This document shows, piece after piece, positions 1-40,034 of a DNA stretch of 40,034 nt. The stretch comes from a virus, in UHGV virus genome UHGV-0388909, one strand, 5' to 3'. The notes beneath the pieces are model-generated. The model searched no databases. It was given only the letters and a program-made list of their open reading frames with translations, and was not told the origin of the DNA. Position numbers and translations under genes: made by a program. The stretch's first letter is position 1; every line of letters begins with the position of its first letter.

Positions 1-102
1 GCTAACTCCTGCTGTTTATAATATGTCTGGATTACCGCACTATCATAAGCAGGAGTTAGCAAAAGAGAGGCAACTGATTCAGCCAAAGCCGTTTACAGCT
101 GA
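1..102. repeat. Terminal repeat block: 1-55 is the reverse complement of 39938-39992; 49-102 is a direct copy of 39981-40034
   Basis: Direct string comparison of window start and end. Confidence 0.9.
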
Positions 103-520
103 GCTTCCACCTGGAGTGTCAACGCGTCCGGCATATCATGGAAGATTCCCTGGTGATGACATATCGTCTCAGTCATCTAAAAAAGCACCTCAGGCAGTAT
201 CAGAGCCAGCAAGAATACCTTCTGTATCGCCGCCAAAAGAAGAATCAGCTAACAGAGTTTCAAGTGGCCGCAAGCAGTGTTTGCGATGCAGAATAAACCT
301 TCCATATGACAAATTCCGGAAATCGTCAAAAAATCCAGATGGATTGACTAAGTGGTGTGCAAGGTGCCTCGATGGCCCAAAGAATACACGCCATATGAAG
401 TGGTGCCCAATTTGTAATGTCCGCAGAAAACGGACCAGCTTTTACCCTAATAATCAAAATGCGGACGGCTTAATGGCATGGTGCAAAACGTGCTGGGACG
501 AGCACAAAGCGAAACGATAG
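23..520 (+). CDS. C-terminal part of a Cys-rich protein with tandem CxxC...WCxxC zinc-ribbon-like repeats; probably continues from 39724-40034 across the circular junction
   Basis: ORF track; residues from position 49 onward are encoded by the same sequence as the end of the window; the annotated N-terminus (23-48) lies in the inverted duplicate and is probably artefactual. Confidence 0.5.
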   Translation: MSGLPHYHKQELAKERQLIQPKPFTAELPPGVSTRPAYHGRFPGDDISSQSSKKAPQAVSEPARIPSVSPPKEESANRVSSGRKQCLRCRINLPYDKFRKSSKNPDGLTKWCARCLDGPKNTRHMKWCPICNVRRKRTSFYPNNQNADGLMAWCKTCWDEHKAKR

Positions 521-542: not shown

Positions 543-800
543 TTACCGGGTTTGTTTTCGTAATTGTTCGGCACAATAGTCGAGATGTGTTTGCAGATCC
601 TGCATAGACATCTGTGAGCTGGTGACGTAGTTAATCAGTGCAGTCAGTTCGGCAAGTGGGCCATCGACATTAAATCCATCCTTATCGAGATCCCGGAGTA
701 ATTTCATCAAGTGCGATCCCTCCACCAGTGACCTGACGCCTCCCGGCGTGTGAATCCTTTCGGTAAATCCGTCTTCCAGTGGATAGTGATACTGCTGCAT
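543..800 (-). CDS. Small SOS-regulated protein (85 aa); candidate antirepressor or induction trigger
   Basis: ATG at 800 preceded by GGAGAA; the longer ORF to 923 would run through the LexA box and promoter; no family recognised. Confidence 0.5.
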   Translation of the reverse strand: MQQYHYPLEDGFTERIHTPGGVRSLVEGSHLMKLLRDLDKDGFNVDGPLAELTALINYVTSSQMSMQDLQTHLDYCAEQLRKQTR

Positions 801-819
801 CTTATCTTCTCCATGCAAT

Positions 820-839
820 AACTGTATGTTTATACAGTA
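820..839. promoter_or_regulatory. LexA (SOS) box, CTGT-N8-ACAG
   Basis: TAACTGTATGTTTATACAGTAA about 20 bp upstream of the ATG at 800; strong match to the E. coli LexA consensus. Confidence 0.75.
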
Positions 840-876
840 ACAAATAATTTGTTTGCTATCCAGCACGTTTTGCAAA

Positions 877-891
877 TTACCCGAAAGGTAA
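877..891. promoter_or_regulatory. TTACC-N5-GGTAA palindrome (TTACCCGAAAGGTAA) in the divergent promoter region between the SOS gene and the tailspike
   Basis: Exact member of the genome-wide palindrome family. Confidence 0.6.
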
Positions 892-995
892 TATCTATTG
901 GTATTTATAGTCTTTTTATCCATATATGGTTTTTCAGGTAATAGAATAACCAGATATGCGGCGCAACGGGTGCTGCGACTATCTGGAGATTTAAC

Positions 996-3900
996 ATGAC
1001 GGTCTCAACCGAAGTTGACCACAACGAATACACCGGTAACGGCGTTACGACATCGTTTCCGTATACTTTTCGAATTTTCAGAAAATCAGACCTGGTTGTT
1101 CAGGTGTCTGACCTGAACGGGAACGTAACAGAATTGGTCCTGGATACTGGTTATACGGTAACTGGGGCGGGCACTTATAGTGGCGGTTCTGTGGTTCTTC
1201 CGTCTCCGCTTGCTACTGGATGGCGAATTACGATAGATCGTGTGCTTGATGTAGTGCAGGACACAGACCTTCGCAATCAGGGAAAATTTTTCCCCGAAGT
1301 GCATGAAGATGCCTTTGACTACCTGACGATGCTGATCCAGCAATGTTTTGGGTGGTTCAGACGTGCATTGATGAAACCATCTTTGCTTGCAAAATATTAC
1401 GATGCAAAGCAAAACAAAATTTCTAACCTTGCAGATCCATCATTTGAGCAGGACGCTGTAAATAATCGCTCAATGCGTAATTATGTCGATGCTGCAATCG
1501 CCGGAGTTGTTGGTGGTTTTGGTTGGTTTATTCAGTATGGTTCTGGGGCTGTGTACCGAACGTTCCAGGATAAAATGCGTGATGCTATTAGCCCCAAAGA
1601 TTTTGGAGCTGTTGGTGATGGTATAAATGACGACTCCACTGCAATAAGCGCGTGCCTTGAAGCCTCATCTCCAGGTTATAAAATTGACGGATTAGGGCTT
1701 ACTTTTAAAGTATCAACTCTTCCGGATGTCAGTCGATTTAAAAATGCTCGTTTTTTATTTGAGAGAATACCGGGCCAGCCTCTTTTTTATGCTTCTGAAG
1801 ATTTTATCCAGGGAGAGTTATTTAAAATTACAGATACACCGTGGTACAACGCCTGGACGCAGGATAAAACGTTTGTATATGACAATGTCATCTATGCGCC
1901 TTTTATGGCTGGAGACCGCCATGGTGTAAATAACCTCCATGTTGCATGGGTTCGCTCAGGAGATGACGGGAAGACCTGGACAACGCCGGAATGGCTTACA
2001 GATTTACATGAAAACTATCCCACAGTTAACTATCACTGCATGAGTATGGGGGTTGTCAGAAATCGCCTTTTTGCTGTAATTGAGACGCGGACCGTGAGAG
2101 GAAATAAACTGCAGGTTGCAGAGTTGTGGGATCGCCCAATGAGTCGCAGCCTTCGCGTTTATGGTGGTATAACGAAAGCAGCAAATCAGCAAGTCGCTTA
2201 TATTCGCATTACTGATCACGGATTATTTGCTGGTGATTTTGTCAACTTCTCAAACTCTGGTGTTACAGGTGTTACCGGGAATATGACGGTGACTACTGTT
2301 ATTGATAAAAATACTTTTACAGTTACGACGCAAAATACTCAGGATGTGGATCAGAATAACGAGGGTAGATACTGGAGTTTTGGCACATCATTTCACTCGT
2401 CACCATGGAGAAAAACCAGTCTTGGAACTATTCCTTCTTTTGTTGACGGAAGCACTCCTGTTACTGAGATTCACAGTTTTGCGACGATTAACGATAACAG
2501 TTTTGCTGTTGGCTACCATAATGGTGATATTGGTCCACGCGAGCTTGGGATACTCTATTTCTCTGATGCTTTCGGTTCTCCTGGTAGCTTTGTTCGCAGA
2601 CGCATACCTGCAGAATATGAGGCGAATGCATCTGAGCCATGTGTAAAATATTATGATGGCATTCTGTATCTGACGACCAGGGGGACATTAAGTACTCGAC
2701 CCGGTAGTTCATTGCACAGAAGCTCTGATTTAGGTACATCATGGAATTCTCTTCGCTTCCCAAATAATGTTCATCACTCAAACCTTCCTTTTGCCAAAGT
2801 TGGCGATGAGCTGATTATTTTTGGCAGTGAGCGCGCATTTGGTGAGTGGGAAGGAGGAGAACCTGATAACCGTTATGCAGGAAATTATCCAAGAACATTT
2901 ATGACCAGAGTTAACGTCAATGAGTGGAGTCTGGATAATGTAGAGTGGGTTAATGTTACTGATCAGATTTATCAGGGCGGAATAGTTAACTCTGCGGTTG
3001 GTGTTGGTTCAGTTTGTATCAAAGACAACTGGCTGTACTACATTTTCGGTGGGGAAGATTTTCTAAACCCATGGAGCATAGGGGATAACAACAGAAAATA
3101 TCCTTATGTTCACGATGGTCACCCGGCTGATTTGTATTGTTTCAGGGTGAAAATTAAACAGGAAGAATTTGTTTCAAGGGATTTTGTCTACGGAGCCACT
3201 CCTAACAGAACGCTTCCTACTTTTATGTCGACGTCAGGCGTGAGGACGGTTCCTGTACCCGTTGATTTCACAGATGATGTTGCCGTCCAGTCACTGACTG
3301 TCCATGCAGGTACATCAGGACAAGTTCGCGCGGAAGTCAAACTTGAGGGTAATTACGCCATTATTGCGAAGAAAGTACCGTCTGATGATGTTACCGCTCA
3401 GAGATTAATCGTTAGCGGCGGTGAAACAACGTCTTCAGCAGATGGTGCAATGATAACGTTGCATGGTTCCAGAAGCAGTACTCCACGTCGCGCGGTATAT
3501 AACGCACTCGAACATCTTTTTGAGAACGGAGATGTTAAACCTTATCTTGATAATGTAAATGCTCTTGGTGGTCCGGGAAACAGGTTCTCGACAGTTTATC
3601 TTGGCTCCAATCCTGTGGTTACCAGTGACGGAACATTAAAGACAGAGCCGGTCTCTCCTGACGAAGCATTGCTGGATGCCTGGGGTGACGTCAGGTATAT
3701 CGCTTATAAATGGCTGAACGCTGTCGCTATAAAGGGGGAAGAAGGGGCGAGGATACATCATGGTGTAATCGCGCAGCAACTTCGTGATGTTCTTATTTCT
3801 CACGGACTCATGGAAGAAGAAAGCACAACATGCCGCTATGCCTTTCTTTGCTATGACGATTATCCCGCAGTATATGATGACGTCATTACTGGCCAAAGGG

Positions 3901-4115
3901 AAATGCCGCTGACTGATAATGACGGGAGCATCATTGTTGATGAGGATGATAATCCAGTGATGGTAATAGAAGACATCATTGAGCGCGTTGAAATAACGCC
4001 AGCAGGATCTAGATGGGGGGTCAGACCTGATCTCTTATTCTATATCGAGGCAGCATGGCAGCGCAGAGAAATGGATAAGATAAAAGAGCGGGTTCAGTCT
4101 CTGGAAGAACGTTAA
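996..4115 (+). CDS. Tailspike/tail fibre: N-terminal anchor domain, central sialidase-like depolymerase, C-terminal intramolecular chaperone (peptidase S74-like)
   Basis: Two Asp-box motifs (SGDDGKTW, SSDLGTSW); beta-helix-type motif DFGAVGDGINDD; C-terminal ...VTSDGTLK...HHGVIAQQL... typical of self-cleaving chaperone domains. Confidence 0.75.
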   Translation: MTVSTEVDHNEYTGNGVTTSFPYTFRIFRKSDLVVQVSDLNGNVTELVLDTGYTVTGAGTYSGGSVVLPSPLATGWRITIDRVLDVVQDTDLRNQGKFFPEVHEDAFDYLTMLIQQCFGWFRRALMKPSLLAKYYDAKQNKISNLADPSFEQDAVNNRSMRNYVDAAIAGVVGGFGWFIQYGSGAVYRTFQDKMRDAISPKDFGAVGDGINDDSTAISACLEASSPGYKIDGLGLTFKVSTLPDVSRFKNARFLFERIPGQPLFYASEDFIQGELFKITDTPWYNAWTQDKTFVYDNVIYAPFMAGDRHGVNNLHVAWVRSGDDGKTWTTPEWLTDLHENYPTVNYHCMSMGVVRNRLFAVIETRTVRGNKLQVAELWDRPMSRSLRVYGGITKAANQQVAYIRITDHGLFAGDFVNFSNSGVTGVTGNMTVTTVIDKNTFTVTTQNTQDVDQNNEGRYWSFGTSFHSSPWRKTSLGTIPSFVDGSTPVTEIHSFATINDNSFAVGYHNGDIGPRELGILYFSDAFGSPGSFVRRRIPAEYEANASEPCVKYYDGILYLTTRGTLSTRPGSSLHRSSDLGTSWNSLRFPNNVHHSNLPFAKVGDELIIFGSERAFGEWEGGEPDNRYAGNYPRTFMTRVNVNEWSLDNVEWVNVTDQIYQGGIVNSAVGVGSVCIKDNWLYYIFGGEDFLNPWSIGDNNRKYPYVHDGHPADLYCFRVKIKQEEFVSRDFVYGATPNRTLPTFMSTSGVRTVPVPVDFTDDVAVQSLTVHAGTSGQVRAEVKLEGNYAIIAKKVPSDDVTAQRLIVSGGETTSSADGAMITLHGSRSSTPRRAVYNALEHLFENGDVKPYLDNVNALGGPGNRFSTVYLGSNPVVTSDGTLKTEPVSPDEALLDAWGDVRYIAYKWLNAVAIKGEEGARIHHGVIAQQLRDVLISHGLMEEESTTCRYAFLCYDDYPAVYDDVITGQREMPLTDNDGSIIVDEDDNPVMVIEDIIERVEITPAGSRWGVRPDLLFYIEAAWQRREMDKIKERVQSLEER

Positions 4116-12030: not shown

Positions 12031-12107
12031 TTACCGTTGAGGTAATAATTATGCTTATTTGGTTTGGTGTCAATAGATATGAGTTAAAAAAATTACCCGT
12101 AAGGTAA
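12031..12107. promoter_or_regulatory. Leftward operator region: two perfect palindromes (12031-12045 TTACCGTTGAGGTAA; 12093-12107 TTACCCGTAAGGTAA)
   Basis: Between the repressor gene terminator and the start of the leftward operon. Confidence 0.6.
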
Positions 12108-12164: not shown

Positions 12165-12749
12165 TTATTGTTTGTTTTTTTCGTTCTGGTTGATGACAAA
12201 TTCAATGTAACTTTCGATCTTTGCTTTCTCGGTTTCGGGTAACAATGCGTAGCGTGAGCGGTCATAGTTGATAGTCGCAGGGTCGTGCGGGTGAATCAGT
12301 AGTTCATATCCGTGACGCCCGAATGCGGATGCAACATTCTCCAGGGTGGAAATGGAAACGCTGACCTCATTGTTTAACAGGCGGCTGATTGTCACCTGGG
12401 CGACGCCGGATGCGCGGTGAAGTTTTCCCTGTGTTGAAAGGTCGCGGCTTTCGCTCATCCAGCGTTCCAGGTTGTGAGCCGCCAGCTGACCTATATCGCT
12501 CGGGCCGACAGGCTGAAAACCCTCCTGAGAAAGCGAACGATCAATATCAAGCCAGTTACGGGGTTTATTGGCGGCCGCTTCAATTTTTCGTGCAACCTGG
12601 TCGCCGATAACCTTCTTGCCAAGAGCCCAGCGGTTTACCAGATTTGCCTGAGTTCCAAGTTTTTCTGCCATCCGCGTCTGAACACCATTGAATTCACGGT
12701 CGATCAAGTCGTTGAGATTTTGCCTGCGGACGTCCTGGATACTTTTCAT
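12165..12749 (-). CDS. Immunity repressor candidate: two HTH domains, no LexA-like peptidase domain
   Basis: HTH-like segments near residues 20-45 and 110-140; no GDSM/Ser-Lys peptidase motifs; divergent from the Cro-like gene. Confidence 0.6.
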   Translation of the reverse strand: MKSIQDVRRQNLNDLIDREFNGVQTRMAEKLGTQANLVNRWALGKKVIGDQVARKIEAAANKPRNWLDIDRSLSQEGFQPVGPSDIGQLAAHNLERWMSESRDLSTQGKLHRASGVAQVTISRLLNNEVSVSISTLENVASAFGRHGYELLIHPHDPATINYDRSRYALLPETEKAKIESYIEFVINQNEKNKQ

Positions 12750-20994: not shown

Positions 20995-21071
20995 TGGCGT
21001 GGCATGCAGGATTCGAACCTGCGACCAACCGCTTAGAAGGCGGTTGCTCTGTCCAACTGAGCTAATGCCAC
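20995..21071 (-). tRNA. tRNA-Arg, anticodon UCU
   Basis: Minus-strand 77 nt GTGGCATTAGCTCAGTTGGACAGAGCAACCGCCTTCTAAGCGGTTGGTCGCAGGTTCGAATCCTGCATGCCACGCCA folds as a cloverleaf with encoded CCA. Confidence 0.85.
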
Positions 21072-21393: not shown

Positions 21394-21408
21394 TTACCTG
21401 AAAGGTAA
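21394..21408. promoter_or_regulatory. Perfect palindrome TTACCTGAAAGGTAA upstream of the portal transcription unit
   Basis: Same palindrome family. Confidence 0.55.
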
Positions 21409-36535: not shown

Positions 36536-37387
36536 ATGAAAAAAATAAATTTGTTTTTTGGCATAGTGCTTTCAATAGTCTCTGTAAATCCTACAGCTGC
36601 CAGTTCATTGCAATGCAATAAGGATAACTTTGATGCATGCAAAACGTGTGAACAATTATCAAAGGCTATCGACTTAAAAGAACCTAATCGTGGCGATTAC
36701 TATAGAGGGGCTTTATGGAATGGGCTTTACGCCTCTTATGTAATTAATTGCCCTGTGGTTGCTGAGAAGTTACTGAGCCATGGTGCTATACCATCATATG
36801 GCGGATATATGGGGTCTATGGGGGCGGTTCTGACAGGAAAATGGCCTCATAACAATGAATCAATAAATCTTTCATGGGCAGATTTGCTTATAAAACATGG
36901 ATTTGATGTTAATAGGCATACGGGGAATTATAAATCAGCTACTGAAGTATGGGCTATAGATAAAAAACAGATTGAATATAAGTCAGTTTTTGACAAGTTA
37001 ATTCAATCCAGCGAAGTAAAACCACTCGATCCTTCAAGAAATTTAGAATGGTGTGCGTCTGAAGGGTATCGCTCAGTTGTCGTTTATTCCCTTAACTCAT
37101 GTATAGAAAATGCTATAAAACGTTTGGATGATGGTGTTTCTTCAGCGTCTGATATTTCATCAGCAGCCGTAAATTCCTGTACTAGCGATGTAGAAAATTT
37201 CAATAAGCATTTGGCATGCAAAGCAGCTGTTAAAGAAAACTCTGATAAAGAGAGAAGCGACGTTTACCAGTTATTAACCAGTGATAGTCAAATGAATAAA
37301 AATGTTATTGATATGCTGAAGGAAAGAAATATTGAAACGGTTCTTGAATTTAGAGCTGAAAATCGATCAGCGAAAACTGCACAGTGA
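36536..37387 (+). CDS. AT-rich moron: secreted protein with possible ankyrin-like repeats
   Basis: N-terminal signal peptide; visibly lower GC than neighbours; motifs AEKLLSHGA and ADLLIKHGFDVN. Confidence 0.45.
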   Translation: MKKINLFFGIVLSIVSVNPTAASSLQCNKDNFDACKTCEQLSKAIDLKEPNRGDYYRGALWNGLYASYVINCPVVAEKLLSHGAIPSYGGYMGSMGAVLTGKWPHNNESINLSWADLLIKHGFDVNRHTGNYKSATEVWAIDKKQIEYKSVFDKLIQSSEVKPLDPSRNLEWCASEGYRSVVVYSLNSCIENAIKRLDDGVSSASDISSAAVNSCTSDVENFNKHLACKAAVKENSDKERSDVYQLLTSDSQMNKNVIDMLKERNIETVLEFRAENRSAKTAQ

Positions 37388-37416
37388 TCAAACAGGCCGC
37401 TTTCGCGGCCTTGTTT

Positions 37417-37578
37417 TTAACGAATGCCACCGCCGCCCGGGCGGGAATCCGCAGAACGCCCACCGCAGCGGGAGCCGTCAGCAGCAGTATCGCTGTCGTG
37501 CTGACAACGACCGGCAAAGGCCTGAGTTGAAGCTACCAGAGACAACAAAACGAACAGTGCAGCAAATGCTTTTTTCAT
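37417..37578 (-). CDS. Small secreted peptide (about 53 aa with signal peptide)
   Basis: Signal sequence then Gly/Arg/Cys-rich tail; start at internal ATG 37578. Confidence 0.35.
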   Translation of the reverse strand: MKKAFAALFVLLSLVASTQAFAGRCQHDSDTAADGSRCGGRSADSRPGGGGIR

Positions 37579-37659
37579 TGTGAAATTTCCATCTATAAAC
37601 CACCTCAATGTGGCGTCAATGAGTGTAGCACTGACTTTTGTTTCGTCCATAAAAAACTA

Positions 37660-38172
37660 CTATGCAGGCTTTTTGGATTTGTACGAATAATCCCACGGAT
37701 AAACATTTCTACTAAGTGGAGCTGTATTCGTTCGTTCATGAAATAATTTTGTGAAATTCAATACGGAATCCATCCAAACTTTTGCGTTAGCTTTGGTGTG
37801 TGCGGGCGGGTCCCAATAAGCTAGTAAGGCTGCATCTCTTATTTCATTGACTGCATATATGAGATATGCGTTACTGGTTGGTTTTGGCCTGTAATTTCCT
37901 TGTTCATCAATCAATCCATATGACCACTCATCCCAACACTGTTCAGTACATGAGTATGAATATGATGCATATTCACCAATATTGACATGAACCTTTCTGA
38001 GATGGAAGCCTAATACTTCCTCTGGTCTTTCAAAAAGAGTATCTTTTCCCAGATCAGGATGATGACCATGACGCCAGTGTTGTTTAAAAGCATCTTTTAG
38101 CGAAATCAGAAAGTCATCAGTTTTAAACTCACCAGTAGGTATAACCTTCCCGCTATACTCACTCAAAAACAT
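37660..38172 (-). CDS. YafO-like toxin candidate
   Basis: Recalled resemblance to E. coli YafO blocks; overlaps the upstream gene. Confidence 0.4.
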   Translation of the reverse strand: MFLSEYSGKVIPTGEFKTDDFLISLKDAFKQHWRHGHHPDLGKDTLFERPEEVLGFHLRKVHVNIGEYASYSYSCTEQCWDEWSYGLIDEQGNYRPKPTSNAYLIYAVNEIRDAALLAYWDPPAHTKANAKVWMDSVLNFTKLFHERTNTAPLSRNVYPWDYSYKSKKPA

Positions 38173-38485
38173 CGAATTCCTCTTCCTTCATATGCGTTTC
38201 TAATGAGTTAAGCTGGCGGAAAGATATCTCTTTTGATTCTGCAGATGAGAGCTTTTTTATCCGCTTTATATTCTTTGTGATAGGAATAGACATTGTATGC
38301 ACATCAGCGGATGCTCTTGGCTTTGTGCTGATAAAAATATGGCGCAATGCCGCATTTTCACTATTGAACGAGCCAATAGCTGATTTACGTGCTACAACCT
38401 TACCAGTAAAAATACGACTCTTGCTACGCTTTGCATGAGTTCCGCTTCTTACCGGACCTCTCATCACGAATCCAAGTTTTGTCAT
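38159..38485 (-). CDS. Basic small protein with acidic C-terminal tail; candidate antitoxin of the YafO-like gene
   Basis: Upstream and overlapping the toxin candidate by 14 nt; not recognisably Phd/YefM-like. Confidence 0.35.
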   Translation of the reverse strand: MTKLGFVMRGPVRSGTHAKRSKSRIFTGKVVARKSAIGSFNSENAALRHIFISTKPRASADVHTMSIPITKNIKRIKKLSSAESKEISFRQLNSLETHMKEEEFDVFE

Positions 38486-38527
38486 CTTTAATCTCCGGTA
38501 AGTTACAGGTATAAAATAAAAACAGGT

Positions 38528-38542
38528 TTACCTTTAAGGTAA
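38528..38542. promoter_or_regulatory. Perfect palindrome TTACCTTTAAGGTAA over the promoter of the toxin-antitoxin-like operon
   Basis: Same palindrome family; identical to the copy at 39689-39703. Confidence 0.55.
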
Positions 38543-38577
38543 TAGTACGCTATTCACCCACAGTCTGCAATCTGTAC

Positions 38578-38606
38578 AGAATTATTTAAAGGCACATCCC
38601 TGTGCC
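38578..38606 (-). terminator. Terminator after the antirepressor gene
   Basis: Hairpin ggcaca-ggga-tgtgcc on the minus strand followed by U-rich sequence. Confidence 0.55.
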
Positions 38607-38615
38607 GCCGTTCTG

Positions 38616-39326
38616 TCAGAAGAACCCTGCCTTGTCGTTGATGTACTCCGCGTGCGTCTGGATATCACGCAGGCATTTGCTCACACCAACGATGTAGCAG
38701 AACATGGTGGTCAGCTCCGCCGCCGCGCCCGATACGTCGTGCCCGTCTTCCTGTAACTGGTTCAGCAAATTCATCAGCAGTGAGTTCTCCGTCAGGCCGA
38801 GAACACCAGACGGCGAATGAATCAGGCTACGGTAGCCGGGCTTCAGTGGGGCGCTGTAGGTTTTGTTCTCTATCTTCATCGCCTGCATTACTGCTGACGC
38901 CGTGGCGTTGGCTACCTGGTCGGCAACCATCTTTATGCGTTCTTCCTGCGGGAGCGAGTTTTTAATGTAGCTTCCGGTGCGGCGGATCTGAGGAAGAACC
39001 TCACCTGTAACCCATTTACGAAAGCGGTAGGGGATAGTGCCTGGTGTCACTGCGTCGCGGCAGCGGAGGATCAGTGTGTAGAGGCCTGACTCGGAGATGA
39101 TGTTGATCTCTTTTACTCGGCTGTCAAAAATTGCACGATGTTCATGCCCTATGTTGAACATAGACCTTTCATCATCATCCAGTTTTTCAAGTGCTTGGGT
39201 GACGTTTTGGATACGCAGCGCACTACAAACGTCTTGGGCTACAAACCATGGTTGGCCATCGATAATGATGGAACGGATAGGGTTAACAGATTCAAATTTG
39301 AAGATGGAAGTTTGAGCATTAGCCAT
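38616..39326 (-). CDS. Antirepressor with Bro-N domain
   Basis: N-terminal ...IIIDGQPWFVAQDVCSALRI... typical of Bro-N/antirepressor proteins; ATG at 39326 with GGAG; the ORF-track start at 39341 is GTG inside the RBS. Confidence 0.7.
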   Translation of the reverse strand: MANAQTSIFKFESVNPIRSIIIDGQPWFVAQDVCSALRIQNVTQALEKLDDDERSMFNIGHEHRAIFDSRVKEINIISESGLYTLILRCRDAVTPGTIPYRFRKWVTGEVLPQIRRTGSYIKNSLPQEERIKMVADQVANATASAVMQAMKIENKTYSAPLKPGYRSLIHSPSGVLGLTENSLLMNLLNQLQEDGHDVSGAAAELTTMFCYIVGVSKCLRDIQTHAEYINDKAGFF

Positions 39327-39341
39327 GGTGGTTATCTCCAC

Positions 39342-39620
39342 TTAGTGATTTTAATCACCACCGCAACGCCAATTACTGGTGGTGAACTGGACAAGGTTGG
39401 CGTACCGGCCTAAGTGGTACCGGCGTCCTTTCGGACCCCTGCCCAGCCCACCATAATTCGGATATAGCTGTGCTTAACGCATAAAAAAACCACGTCTGGC
39501 GTGGTATGCGCCACTTAGTAACCCGGGACGCCAATCCCGGCACTGGATTTTGCCAGTGCCCGATTACTATGGCACAAGAGGAGTGCGATGTAAATTTACC
39601 GCAAAGGTAATGATAAACGC
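39342..39620 (-). promoter_or_regulatory. Structured 5' leader of the antirepressor gene with three 8-nt elements, an internal terminator hairpin and a palindrome operator (39596-39610)
   Basis: CCACTTAG at 39338-39345 and 39511-39518; complementary CTAAGTGG at 39410-39417; hairpin ccacg-n5-cgtgg plus U7 at 39482-39504. Confidence 0.5.
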
Positions 39621-39723: not shown

Positions 39724-40034
39724 ATGGAAGTTTTCTGGATAGTTGTTGGTGTGGTTGCGGTGATTATTTACGTTATCAACCAGAACAAGACTAAGATCTC
39801 TGATCGTACGGTCGTTAATCAGAACAAAACGATAAAGACCGAAGATGGGGAGGTAACGATTAGTCGTACACAGGTGATAGAACACACATCTACTCAGTTT
39901 CAAAAAACTGGAGGTAACGCGCCTGATATTTCCGTACCTCCTGCTTATGATAGTGCGGTAATCCAGACATATTATAAACAGCAGGAGTTAGCAAAAGAGA
40001 GGCAACTGATTCAGCCAAAGCCGTTTACAGCTGA
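39724..40034 (+). CDS. N-terminal part (TM anchor plus linker) of the Cys-rich protein continuing at 103-520
   Basis: ATG at 39724 with GAGGA upstream; hydrophobic N-terminus; reading frame continues through the terminal overlap into ORF 23-520. Confidence 0.5.
   Translation, partial: MEVFWIVVGVVAVIIYVINQNKTKISDRTVVNQNKTIKTEDGEVTISRTQVIEHTSTQFQKTGGNAPDISVPPAYDSAVIQTYYKQQELAKERQLIQPKPFTA

What the first reader, a model, noticed from the sequence alone, without database searches (positions are those of the whole stretch)
37417..38542. Accessory operon with a YafO-like toxin and a non-canonical upstream partner
Two overlapping minus-strand genes (108 aa basic protein with acidic tail, then 170 aa) lie between the antirepressor and the virion genes under their own palindrome-containing promoter. 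The 170-aa protein shares blocks with the YafO family as I recall it, but its partner does not resemble the usual Phd/YefM-type YafN. A small secreted peptide gene follows on the same strand. This could be a toxin-antitoxin or abortive-infection style module carried as a prophage moron.
Basis: inference. Interest (0 to 1): 0.55.

Follow-up and report, generated by a model that had tools for sequence, protein, structure and literature searches.

The report
Prophage YafO-type toxin-antitoxin cargo
A temperate E. coli phage carries a two-gene cassette that is very probably a toxin-antitoxin pair: a divergent YafO-type RNA-cutting toxin and a previously undescribed antidote protein, plugged in behind a promoter that carries the phage's own repressor-binding site. 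It is an interesting variant of a known kind of system rather than something new in kind.

Summary
Two minus-strand genes overlap by 14 nt: 108 aa at 38159-38485 and 170 aa at 37660-38172. A 53-aa signal-peptide gene and a terminator follow.

**Toxin.** The 170-aa protein is a divergent, longer member of the YafO toxin family.
- Its own Pfam match is below the curated cut-off (20.1 vs 25 bits).
- 28 of 43 relatives hit PF13957, and the family profile matches E. coli K-12 YafO (hhalign 95.9%, E 5e-9).
- The invariant residues F29, G42, H62 and H125 are shared with YafO.
- RefSeq already names it a YafO-family toxin.

**Partner.** It belongs to a small family of enterobacterial proteins with no Pfam match, and it is unrelated to YafN or Phd/YefM. 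It evolves faster than the toxin. It shares only a C-terminal acidic/aromatic module of about 35 aa with the partners of other long-YafO genes.

**Setting.** The cassette (37657-38525, low GC) sits in a swappable cargo slot of phiV10/epsilon15-like prophages. The promoter palindrome is not specific to this operon. It is one of 15 copies of the phage-wide operator TTACC-N5-GGTAA, which also occurs between the repressor and cro-like genes.

Toxicity, neutralisation and any anti-phage role are untested. Verdict: a new variant of a known kind, of moderate interest.

The parts
38565..38570 (-). Putative -35 hexamer TTGCAG of the cargo-slot promoter
   Evidence: Read from the sequence. It lies 17 nt from the -10 hexamer, the same geometry as the strong PL-like promoter TTGACA-17-AATTAT-TACC at 12031. 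It matches only 3 of 6 positions, so this is an inference.
38542..38547 (-). Putative -10 hexamer TACTAT; its last T is the first base of the operator
   Evidence: The arrangement in which the -10 hexamer ends 1 nt into the operator recurs at five other operator copies (12031, 12853, 18247, 21394 and 39596).
38528..38542 (.). Operator-type palindrome TTACCTTTAAGGTAA, one copy of the phage-wide TTACC-N5-GGTAA motif
   Evidence: The window has 15 sites with at most 1 mismatch against 0.84 expected, including two in the intergenic region between the repressor and cro-like genes. phiV10, which lacks this cassette, has 14 against 0.73 expected. The conserved flank shared with TL-2011b and phiv142-3 starts at 38526/38527, two nucleotides or one nucleotide before the operator. 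The motif is present upstream of the homologous cassettes in other genera.
37657..38525 (-). Variable cargo cassette: 5' UTR plus the partner and toxin genes
   Evidence: blastn against TL-2011b, phiv142-3 and EC.W1-9 shows conserved flanks ending at 37656 and resuming at 38526/38527 (TL-2011b, phiv142-3) or 38573 (EC.W1-9). GC is 0.38-0.41 in the cassette and 0.50-0.57 in the Bro-N gene beside it and the virion gene beyond the 283-aa gene. Other phages carry different cargo in the same slot.
38159..38485 (-). Partner gene, 108 aa: putative antitoxin from a family with no Pfam, NCBIfam or PDB match
   Evidence: PHROG 5933, function unknown. No Pfam, NCBIfam, PADLOC or PDB match. The alignment has 20 family members, all named ones from Enterobacterales. 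Conserved parts are the N-terminus MTKLGFVxRG..KRRK and the C-terminus ELSFRMLNSLEDRMKEExFDVFE; the middle is variable. It is 31-49% identical where the toxins are 69-79% identical. The AF2 model is poor; the C-terminal helix 89-107 is its best-supported element.
37660..38172 (-). Toxin gene, 170 aa: a long YafO-family protein
38159..38172 (-). 14-nt gene overlap, suggesting translational coupling
   Evidence: The same 14-nt overlap occurs in the 21 IMG/VR loci that carry the same partner family and in the Citrobacter, Serratia and JGI-metagenome loci.
37417..37578 (-). Small secreted-peptide gene (53 aa, signal peptide, two Cys); a backbone gene of the same transcription unit
   Evidence: PHROG 14503, 'membrane associated protein', and PHROG 3117. 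It lies inside the conserved left flank and is present in TL-2011b and phiv142-3 with other cargo. It is missing beside the pair in L006 and L009-L012.
37394..37411 (.). Terminator hairpin shared by the convergent minus-strand unit and the plus-strand 283-aa gene
   Evidence: 7 pairs, 6 of them G-C, followed by a T run. The same element is annotated as a terminator in phiV10.
38591..38606 (-). Hairpin GGCACA-GGGA-TGTGCC followed by TTTAAATAATT, after the Bro-N gene; a possible weak terminator separating the ant operon from the cargo unit
   Evidence: Read from the sequence. It is conserved in the flank of the related phages. The terminator scan did not call it, so this is an inference.

Best explanation
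This is a type II toxin-antitoxin cassette carried as exchangeable cargo by a phiV10/epsilon15-like (Uetakevirus-like) temperate phage.

**Toxin.** The 170-aa protein is a divergent, longer member of the YafO family. By homology it is a ribosome-dependent mRNA endonuclease with a RelE-like core that arrests translation. Compared with K-12 YafO it has an extra Cys/Trp-rich insertion of about 30 residues and a C-terminal extension.

**Antitoxin.** The 108-aa protein encoded just upstream is translationally coupled through a 14-nt overlap. It is largely disordered and fast-evolving. I infer that its conserved acidic/aromatic C-terminal helix (about residues 75-108) binds and blocks the toxin. Its conserved basic N-terminus has an unknown role; it may contact nucleic acid or act as a protease tag. 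It has no recognisable DNA-binding domain.

**Regulation.** Transcription comes from a backbone promoter whose -10/+1 region is covered by one copy of the phage-wide operator TTACC-N5-GGTAA. Expression is therefore most likely set by the prophage repressor/Cro circuit rather than by antitoxin autoregulation.

**Biological pay-off.** The most likely benefit is protection of the lysogen or prophage: growth arrest when the labile antitoxin is no longer replenished, either through abortive infection or through post-segregational stabilisation.

**Shown:** gene anatomy, family membership at profile level, conservation of the pair, cassette boundaries and operator distribution.
**Inferred:** toxicity, neutralisation through the C-terminal tail, repressor control and biological role.
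For: **Toxin family**
- Pfam YafO_toxin E 7e-4.
- 58 representatives in the exhaustive search. 28 of 43 aligned relatives hit PF13957, best E 6.8e-23.
- Family profile against K-12 YafO: 95.9%, E 5e-9, covering YafO residues 11-128 of 132.
- F29, G42, H62 and H125 are invariant in all 47 sequences, including K-12 YafO; D44 and Y106 are nearly invariant and also kept in K-12 YafO, and S100 is nearly invariant but is N there.
- RefSeq naming.

**Pairing**
- The upstream partner keeps the same 14-nt overlap in E. coli, Citrobacter, Serratia and 21 IMG/VR loci.
- The toxin is 69-79% identical where the partner is 31-49% identical.
- pN/pS is 0.16-0.23 for the toxin and about 0.6-0.7 for the partner.

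**Tail module**
- Partners of other long-YafO clades have different N-termini, but their last 38 aa align without gaps.
- The type-A tail HMM beats all but 2-224 of 3000 shuffles.

**Cargo slot and operator:**

**Repressor:** it is 100% identical to phiV10 p40. PMC9782041 reports that this is the same protein as the ZX5 ORF21 repressor, which blocks the lytic cycle when overexpressed.
Against: - The protein's own Pfam score is below the gathering cut-off, and NCBIfam has no YafO hit.
- Direct BLASTP against K-12 YafO is not significant.
- Both AF2 models are of low confidence (pLDDT 46.6 and 61.7), so the fold evidence is weak and no complex could be modelled.
- No toxicity or neutralisation data exist.
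- PADLOC finds no defence-system match.
- The promoter hexamers are weak (7 of 12 matches), and the consensus scan did not call them.
- It is not shown which protein binds the operator, or with what sign. A one-mismatch copy also lies about 40 nt upstream of the phiV10 lysogenic-conversion gene oac.
Confidence: 0.7

Rival explanations
1. The pair serves the lytic programme and is not a toxin-antitoxin addiction or defence module. The YafO-like RNase would be made on derepression to shut off or remodel host translation, and the partner would be a timing inhibitor or chaperone.
For: The operator overlaps the putative -10/+1 in the same way as at the PL-like early promoter. That predicts silence in the lysogen and expression after induction or infection. 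The unit lies directly downstream of the antirepressor operon.
Against: The cassette is dispensable and swappable: phiV10 has nothing there, and other phages carry unrelated cargo. Low GC marks it as accessory. A ribosome-dependent mRNA interferase would cut phage mRNAs as well. A single operator usually represses incompletely.
Confidence: 0.15
2. It is a three-component system in which the secreted 53-aa peptide works together with the two proteins.
For: The peptide gene is on the same strand, lies 81 nt downstream of the toxin stop and shares the terminator.
Against: The peptide gene belongs to the conserved flank. It occurs with unrelated cargo in TL-2011b and phiv142-3. The pair occurs without it in L006 and L009-L012. 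A possible promoter of its own (TTGACG-16-TATAGA) lies between the toxin stop and its start (read by eye).
Confidence: 0.04
3. The 108-aa protein is a conventional autoregulating antitoxin that binds the palindrome through its basic N-terminus.
For: The invariant basic N-terminus MTKLGFVxRG..KRRK. The palindrome at the promoter. This is the classical type II design.
Against: The palindrome is a backbone motif, present 14 times in phiV10, which has no such protein. It also lies in front of unrelated cargos. No DNA-binding domain is detectable. No other palindrome is present in the 5' region.
Confidence: 0.08
4. The YafO-like gene is a decayed or non-toxic relative that has been co-opted, or is hitch-hiking with no function.
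For: The Pfam score is sub-threshold, and the protein carries a large insertion and an extension relative to YafO.
Against: Purifying selection is strong across genera. All family-invariant residues are retained. The partner is always retained with a conserved overlap.
Confidence: 0.05

Closest known systems
E. coli K-12 YafN-YafO type II toxin-antitoxin system (dinB operon)
   Same: The toxin belongs to the same family at profile level. It shares the core motifs F..G[KR]D..[HK]xH..S[DN]..L.Y..AH. The antitoxin gene lies immediately upstream. Both partners end in an acidic/aromatic tail (FDVFE in this window, FNDFKE in YafN).
   Different: - The toxin is 170 aa rather than 132 aa. It has an insertion of about 30 aa containing conserved C79, W80 and W83, and a C-terminal extension of about 25 aa.
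- The partner has no Phd/YefM domain and no significant similarity to YafN.
- The genes overlap by 14 nt, whereas yafN and yafO are separated by 2 nt.
- The context is a phage cargo slot with a phage operator, not the SOS-regulated dinB operon.
Other long-YafO pairs in phiV10/epsilon15-like phages: TL-2011b gp45/gp44 in the same slot, and the second pair of EC.W1-9 and E. coli N10 in the slot between Bro-N and the tailspike
   Same: Same toxin clade (33% and 47% identity). An upstream overlapping partner. An operator-preceded slot. The partner C-terminal module is related.
   Different: The partners differ in length (59, 139-175 aa) and have unrelated N-terminal parts. DNA similarity is confined to the flanks.
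RelE/HigB/YafQ/YoeB ribosome-dependent mRNA interferases
   Different: There is no sequence-level match. The model confidence is low. The candidate catalytic set here is His/His/Tyr rather than the RelE Arg/Lys/Tyr set (inference).
Cargo ('moron') hotspots of temperate phages and satellites that hold defence or toxin-antitoxin genes
   Same: A fixed slot with conserved flanks and alternative low-GC cargos.
   Different: Here the slot sits behind a backbone promoter that carries the phage's own operator, rather than each moron bringing its own promoter and terminator. No known defence family is detected.

Membership tests
YafO toxin family (Pfam PF13957) | Match to the family profile at the curated threshold | tested here: not met
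   20.1 bits, E 7e-4, against a gathering score of 25; the match covers profile positions 7-100 of 101. NCBIfam has no YafO hit.
YafO toxin family (PF13957) | Homology to bona fide YafO shown through intermediate sequences or profile-profile comparison | tested here: met
   28 of 43 relatives from the exhaustive search hit PF13957, best E 6.8e-23. hhalign of that alignment against K-12 YafO gives 95.9%, E 5.1e-9 over 110 columns.
YafO toxin family (PF13957) | Conserved core residues shared with K-12 YafO | tested here: met
   F29, G42, H62 and H125 are invariant in all 47 sequences, including K-12 YafO and a Pseudomonadales YafO; D44 and Y106 are nearly invariant.
YafO toxin family (PF13957) | Growth arrest through ribosome-dependent mRNA cleavage | not testable with these tools
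   This needs expression and toeprint or primer-extension assays. The K-12 activity is known from Zhang et al. 2009, as cited in PMC3337138.
YafO toxin family (PF13957) | RelE-like fold | tested here: inconclusive
Phd/YefM antitoxins (YafN) | N-terminal Phd/YefM domain or sequence similarity to YafN | tested here: not met
   BLASTP gives no alignment. No family member has a Pfam match at E up to 1 to PhdYeFM. hhalign pairs only the two C-terminal tails, at E 0.14. Tail HMMs score YafN no better than its shuffles.
Type II toxin-antitoxin system (generic) | Two small co-oriented adjacent genes, antitoxin first, conserved as a pair | tested here: met
Type II toxin-antitoxin system (generic) | Antitoxin with a DNA-binding domain that autoregulates the operon | tested here: not met
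   No DNA-binding domain is detected. The only palindrome is the phage-wide operator.
Type II toxin-antitoxin system (generic) | Direct neutralisation by protein-protein binding, and a labile antitoxin | not testable with these tools
   No complex prediction was available. The conserved C-terminal module shared among partner types is indirect support only.
Known anti-phage defence systems (PADLOC-DB v2) | Match to any defence-system protein model | tested here: not met
   None of the four proteins tested gives a hit at E up to 1.

The most novel reading that the evidence does not exclude
The long-YafO cassettes of phiV10/epsilon15-like phages may be toxin-antitoxin modules that have given up antitoxin autoregulation. 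The antitoxin would be reduced to a swappable N-terminal part plus a shared toxin-binding tail of about 35 aa. Transcription of the whole cargo slot would be handed to the prophage immunity repressor through a single backbone operator. The toxin/antitoxin balance would then be wired to the lysis-lysogeny switch. For example, toxin could be released when repression, translation or the prophage itself is lost. The same operator-controlled slot would accept alternative cargos.
Probability: 0.3. Interest if true: 0.55.

Novelty: new variant of a known kind. Interest (0 to 1): 0.36.

Why it matters
- YafO is one of the least understood mRNA-interferase toxin families. A profile search of PDB sequences found no solved structure, and the family is small. 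In 2011 it was reported as absent from phages and plasmids (PMC3141249).
- This locus shows a phage-borne, longer YafO clade with a family of modular partners. Their only shared part is a short C-terminal tail, which gives a compact, testable candidate for the toxin-binding element.
- The locus also points to a cargo slot in a common group of E. coli, Citrobacter and Serratia prophages whose expression appears to be governed by the phage's own operator. That bears on when prophage accessory genes are switched on.
- The practical consequence is modest: a better annotation for the partner, currently 'hypothetical protein', and a candidate prophage-stabilising or anti-phage module in clinical E. 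coli, including K1 strains.

Tried and rejected
1. **Tail homology between the partner and YafN.** By eye it is attractive (..MKEEEFDVFE against ..MTDDDFNDFKE), and hhalign pairs exactly the two tails. But HMM tests against shuffled sequences give no support (2048 of 5000 and 929 of 3000 shuffles score as well). I kept it only as a lead.
2. **The palindrome as a boxB/nut-like RNA hairpin.** I rejected this. The loop sequences are not consistent on the transcribed strand, the sites overlap -10 elements on either strand, and two copies lie between the repressor and cro-like genes.
3. **The palindrome as the antitoxin's own operator.** I rejected this because phiV10 has 14 copies without the cassette.
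4. **Structured 5' UTR.** None was found (z = 0.51).
6. **The search for related loci with broad alignments** failed for lack of conserved stretches. The single genome-contig scan, run with K-12 YafO, returned only 8 loci, too few for a YafN family profile.
7. **P0053.** This 1133-aa hit with 13 matched stretches is a tandem-repeat junk translation, not a relative.
8. **The epsilon15 genome paper (PMC2698709),** which I recall as describing an operator consensus of this type, is not held. That recollection is unverified.
9. **Weak matches to fucose lectins** and to DUF1319 are treated as chance.

Full report
**1. What is in the sequence**

The window is a complete phage genome of about 40 kb, of the phiV10/epsilon15 type.
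- Its repressor is 100% identical to phiV10 p40.
- The gene order matches phiV10.
- It carries a K1 endosialidase tailspike.
- Its last 55 nt repeat positions 48-102, which is a circular-assembly overlap.

On the minus strand, between the Bro-N antirepressor gene (38616-39308) and the virion genes, lie the following:
- a 108-aa ORF at 38159-38485;
- a 170-aa ORF at 37660-38172, overlapping the first by 14 nt;
- a 53-aa signal-peptide ORF at 37417-37578;
- a hairpin terminator at 37394-37411.

A perfect palindrome, TTACCTTTAAGGTAA, lies at 38528-38542.

**2. The 170-aa protein is a long YafO-family protein**

- On its own it scores 20.1 bits (E 7e-4) against Pfam YafO_toxin. That is below the cut-off of 25, although almost the whole profile is covered.
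- NCBIfam, PADLOC and the PDB sequences give nothing.
- BLASTP against K-12 YafO is not significant.

An exhaustive profile search of 1.84 billion cluster representatives found only 58 relatives.
- Of 43 that I aligned, 28 hit PF13957, with a best E of 6.8e-23.
- The shortest members (133-135 aa) look like classical YafO.
- The profile of this alignment matches K-12 YafO with 95.9% probability and E 5e-9, over YafO residues 11-128 of 132.
- F29, G42, H62 and H125 are invariant in all 47 sequences, including K-12 YafO. D44, P50, W80, S100 and Y106 are nearly invariant.

Relative to YafO, the window protein has an insertion of about 30 residues (about 64-98, with conserved C79, W80 and W83) and a C-terminal extension.

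RefSeq already names the protein 'type II toxin-antitoxin system YafO family toxin'. Purifying selection is strong: pN is 0.13-0.19 against saturated synonymous sites.

**3. The partner**

The 108-aa protein has no Pfam, NCBIfam, PADLOC or PDB match, and no similarity to YafN.

I aligned 20 members of its family. Those that carry an organism name are from Escherichia, Citrobacter, Serratia and Klebsiella.

| Region | Sequence | Conservation |
|---|---|---|
| N-terminus | MTKLGFVxRG..KRRK | nearly invariant, basic |
| Middle | variable | poorly conserved |
| C-terminus | PKIKxISAxxSxELSFRMLNSLEDRMKEExFDVFE | conserved |

In the same loci the partner is 31-49% identical where the toxin is 69-79% identical. 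That is the usual antitoxin pattern.

**4. Partner diversity points to a tail module**

An IMG/VR scan returned 32 loci, most of them on contigs of about 40 kb. Every long-YafO gene in them has an upstream overlapping gene, with an overlap of 14, 11 or 5 nt.

There are at least four partner architectures, with different N-terminal parts and lengths of 100-175 aa. Their last 38 residues align without gaps. An HMM of the type-A tail scores the other three types better than all but 2-224 of 3000 composition-matched shuffles.

I take this as moderate support for a shared C-terminal toxin-binding module joined to swappable N-terminal parts.

The same tests give no support for homology with the YafN tail, although hhalign pairs exactly those two tails at E 0.14.

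**5. The cassette sits in a backbone cargo slot**

Against TL-2011b and phiv142-3, DNA similarity stops at 37656, four nucleotides beyond the toxin stop codon. It resumes at 38526/38527, immediately before the operator.

The promoter/operator, the peptide gene and the terminator are therefore conserved backbone. Only the 5' UTR and the two genes (37657-38525) are cargo. GC is 0.38-0.41 in the cargo and 0.50-0.57 in the backbone on either side, the Bro-N gene and the virion gene beyond the low-GC 283-aa gene.

| Phage or genome set | Content of the slot |
|---|---|
| phiV10 | empty |
| phiv142-3 | two small ORFs |
| TL-2011b | a 59-aa partner plus a 33%-identical long YafO |
| EC.W1-9 | a 108-aa protein plus a DUF2335 membrane protein |
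| 69 of 5426 complete E. coli genomes | this cassette |
| Deposited phage genomes (INPHARED) | none carries this cassette |

**6. The palindrome is the phage-wide operator**

TTACC-N5-GGTAA occurs 15 times in the window with at most one mismatch, against 0.84 expected. Copies include:
- two between the divergent repressor (12165-12749, two HTH domains) and cro-like genes;
- two at the strong leftward promoter TTGACA-17-AATTAT;
- one at the promoter of the isrK/C4/ant operon.

phiV10, which lacks the cassette, has 14 copies at homologous places. The motif is also found within 160 nt upstream of the partner's start codon in 27 of 32 IMG/VR loci, and in the Citrobacter, Serratia and EC.W1-9 versions even where the promoter sequence differs.

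At the cassette, the best promoter candidate is TTGCAG-17-TACTAT. Its -10 element ends one base into the operator, the same geometry as at the leftward early promoter.

I infer that the slot is controlled by the immunity circuit, and most simply repressed by it. The repressor is experimentally validated in the identical ZX5 protein (PMC9782041).

Which protein binds the operator, and with what sign, is not shown. A one-mismatch copy also lies near the lysogenic-conversion gene oac in phiV10.

**7. Mechanism and rivals**

My best reading (confidence 0.7) is a type II toxin-antitoxin pair. It consists of a YafO-type ribosome-dependent mRNA interferase and a labile, largely disordered antitoxin that blocks the toxin with its C-terminal helix. 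Transcription would be set by the phage operator rather than by antitoxin autoregulation.

The rivals are:
- a lytic-phase RNase (0.15);
- a conventional autoregulating antitoxin (0.08);
- a decayed gene (0.05);
- a three-component system with the peptide (0.04).

**8. Comparison and novelty**

In 2011 the YafO superfamily was described as small and restricted to one phylum. It was reported as absent from phages and plasmids, and as paired with Phd or with unclassified partners (PMC3141249). No structure was known then (PMC3337138), and a profile search of PDB sequences finds none now.

The toxin here is already labelled by RefSeq, so the family assignment is not new. What is new is the description of:
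- the partner family and its shared tail module;
- the longer toxin clade in phiV10/epsilon15-like phages;
- the operator-controlled cargo slot.

This is a new variant of a known kind. Interest is moderate (0.36).

Noticed in passing
window 877, 6480, 12031, 12093, 12805, 12853, 13190, 15129, 15191, 18229, 18247, 21394, 38528, 39596, 39689: A phage-wide palindrome, TTACC-N5-GGTAA: 15 copies against 0.84 expected. Copies lie between the repressor and cro-like genes and at several promoter -10/+1 positions, so it is probably the immunity operator. phiV10 has 14 copies at homologous places.
   Followed up: partly
window 39375-39458 (-) and 39483-39559 (-): Rfam matches to C4 antisense RNA (66 bits) and to the isrK Hfq-binding sRNA (67.7 bits), directly upstream of the Bro-N antirepressor gene. 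This is a P1 immI-like layout of antisense control of ant, in a podophage.
   Followed up: no
window 543-923 (-), SOS box at about 825-840: A canonical LexA box (CTGTATAAACATACAG on the minus strand) and an operator copy (877) precede an ORF of about 87 aa (543-806). The C-terminal part of that ORF resembles the C-terminus of the Bro-N antirepressor by eye. It may be a LexA-controlled, Tum-like antirepressor.
   Followed up: partly
window 39725-40034 continuing into 23-520 (+): A second cargo slot lies between the ant operon and the tailspike. Here it holds a membrane-anchored Cys-rich protein (weak Stc1 match). In E. coli N10 and phage EC.W1-9 the same slot holds a second long-YafO pair (139-147 aa partner, 168-aa toxin, 47% identical). 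Some prophages therefore carry two YafO-type pairs.
   Followed up: partly
window 36536-37387 (+): A low-GC (0.35-0.42) gene of 283 aa with a signal-peptide-like N-terminus, PHROG 6118, no Pfam match. It converges on the same terminator and is probably another accessory gene.
   Followed up: no
window 1-55 and 39980-40034: The last 55 nt repeat positions 48-102, which is a circular-assembly overlap. The first 55 nt are the reverse complement of 39938-39992, which looks like an assembly artefact at the contig end.
   Followed up: yes
window 996-4115 (+): The tailspike is a K1-type endosialidase with all endosialidase Pfam domains, so this phiV10-like temperate phage should target K1-capsulated E. 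coli. The best genomic match is a prophage in a CSF isolate.
   Followed up: no
window 20998-21071 (-): A tRNA gene (Rfam, 73 bits) lies between the terminase and portal regions, next to an operator copy at 21394.
   Followed up: no
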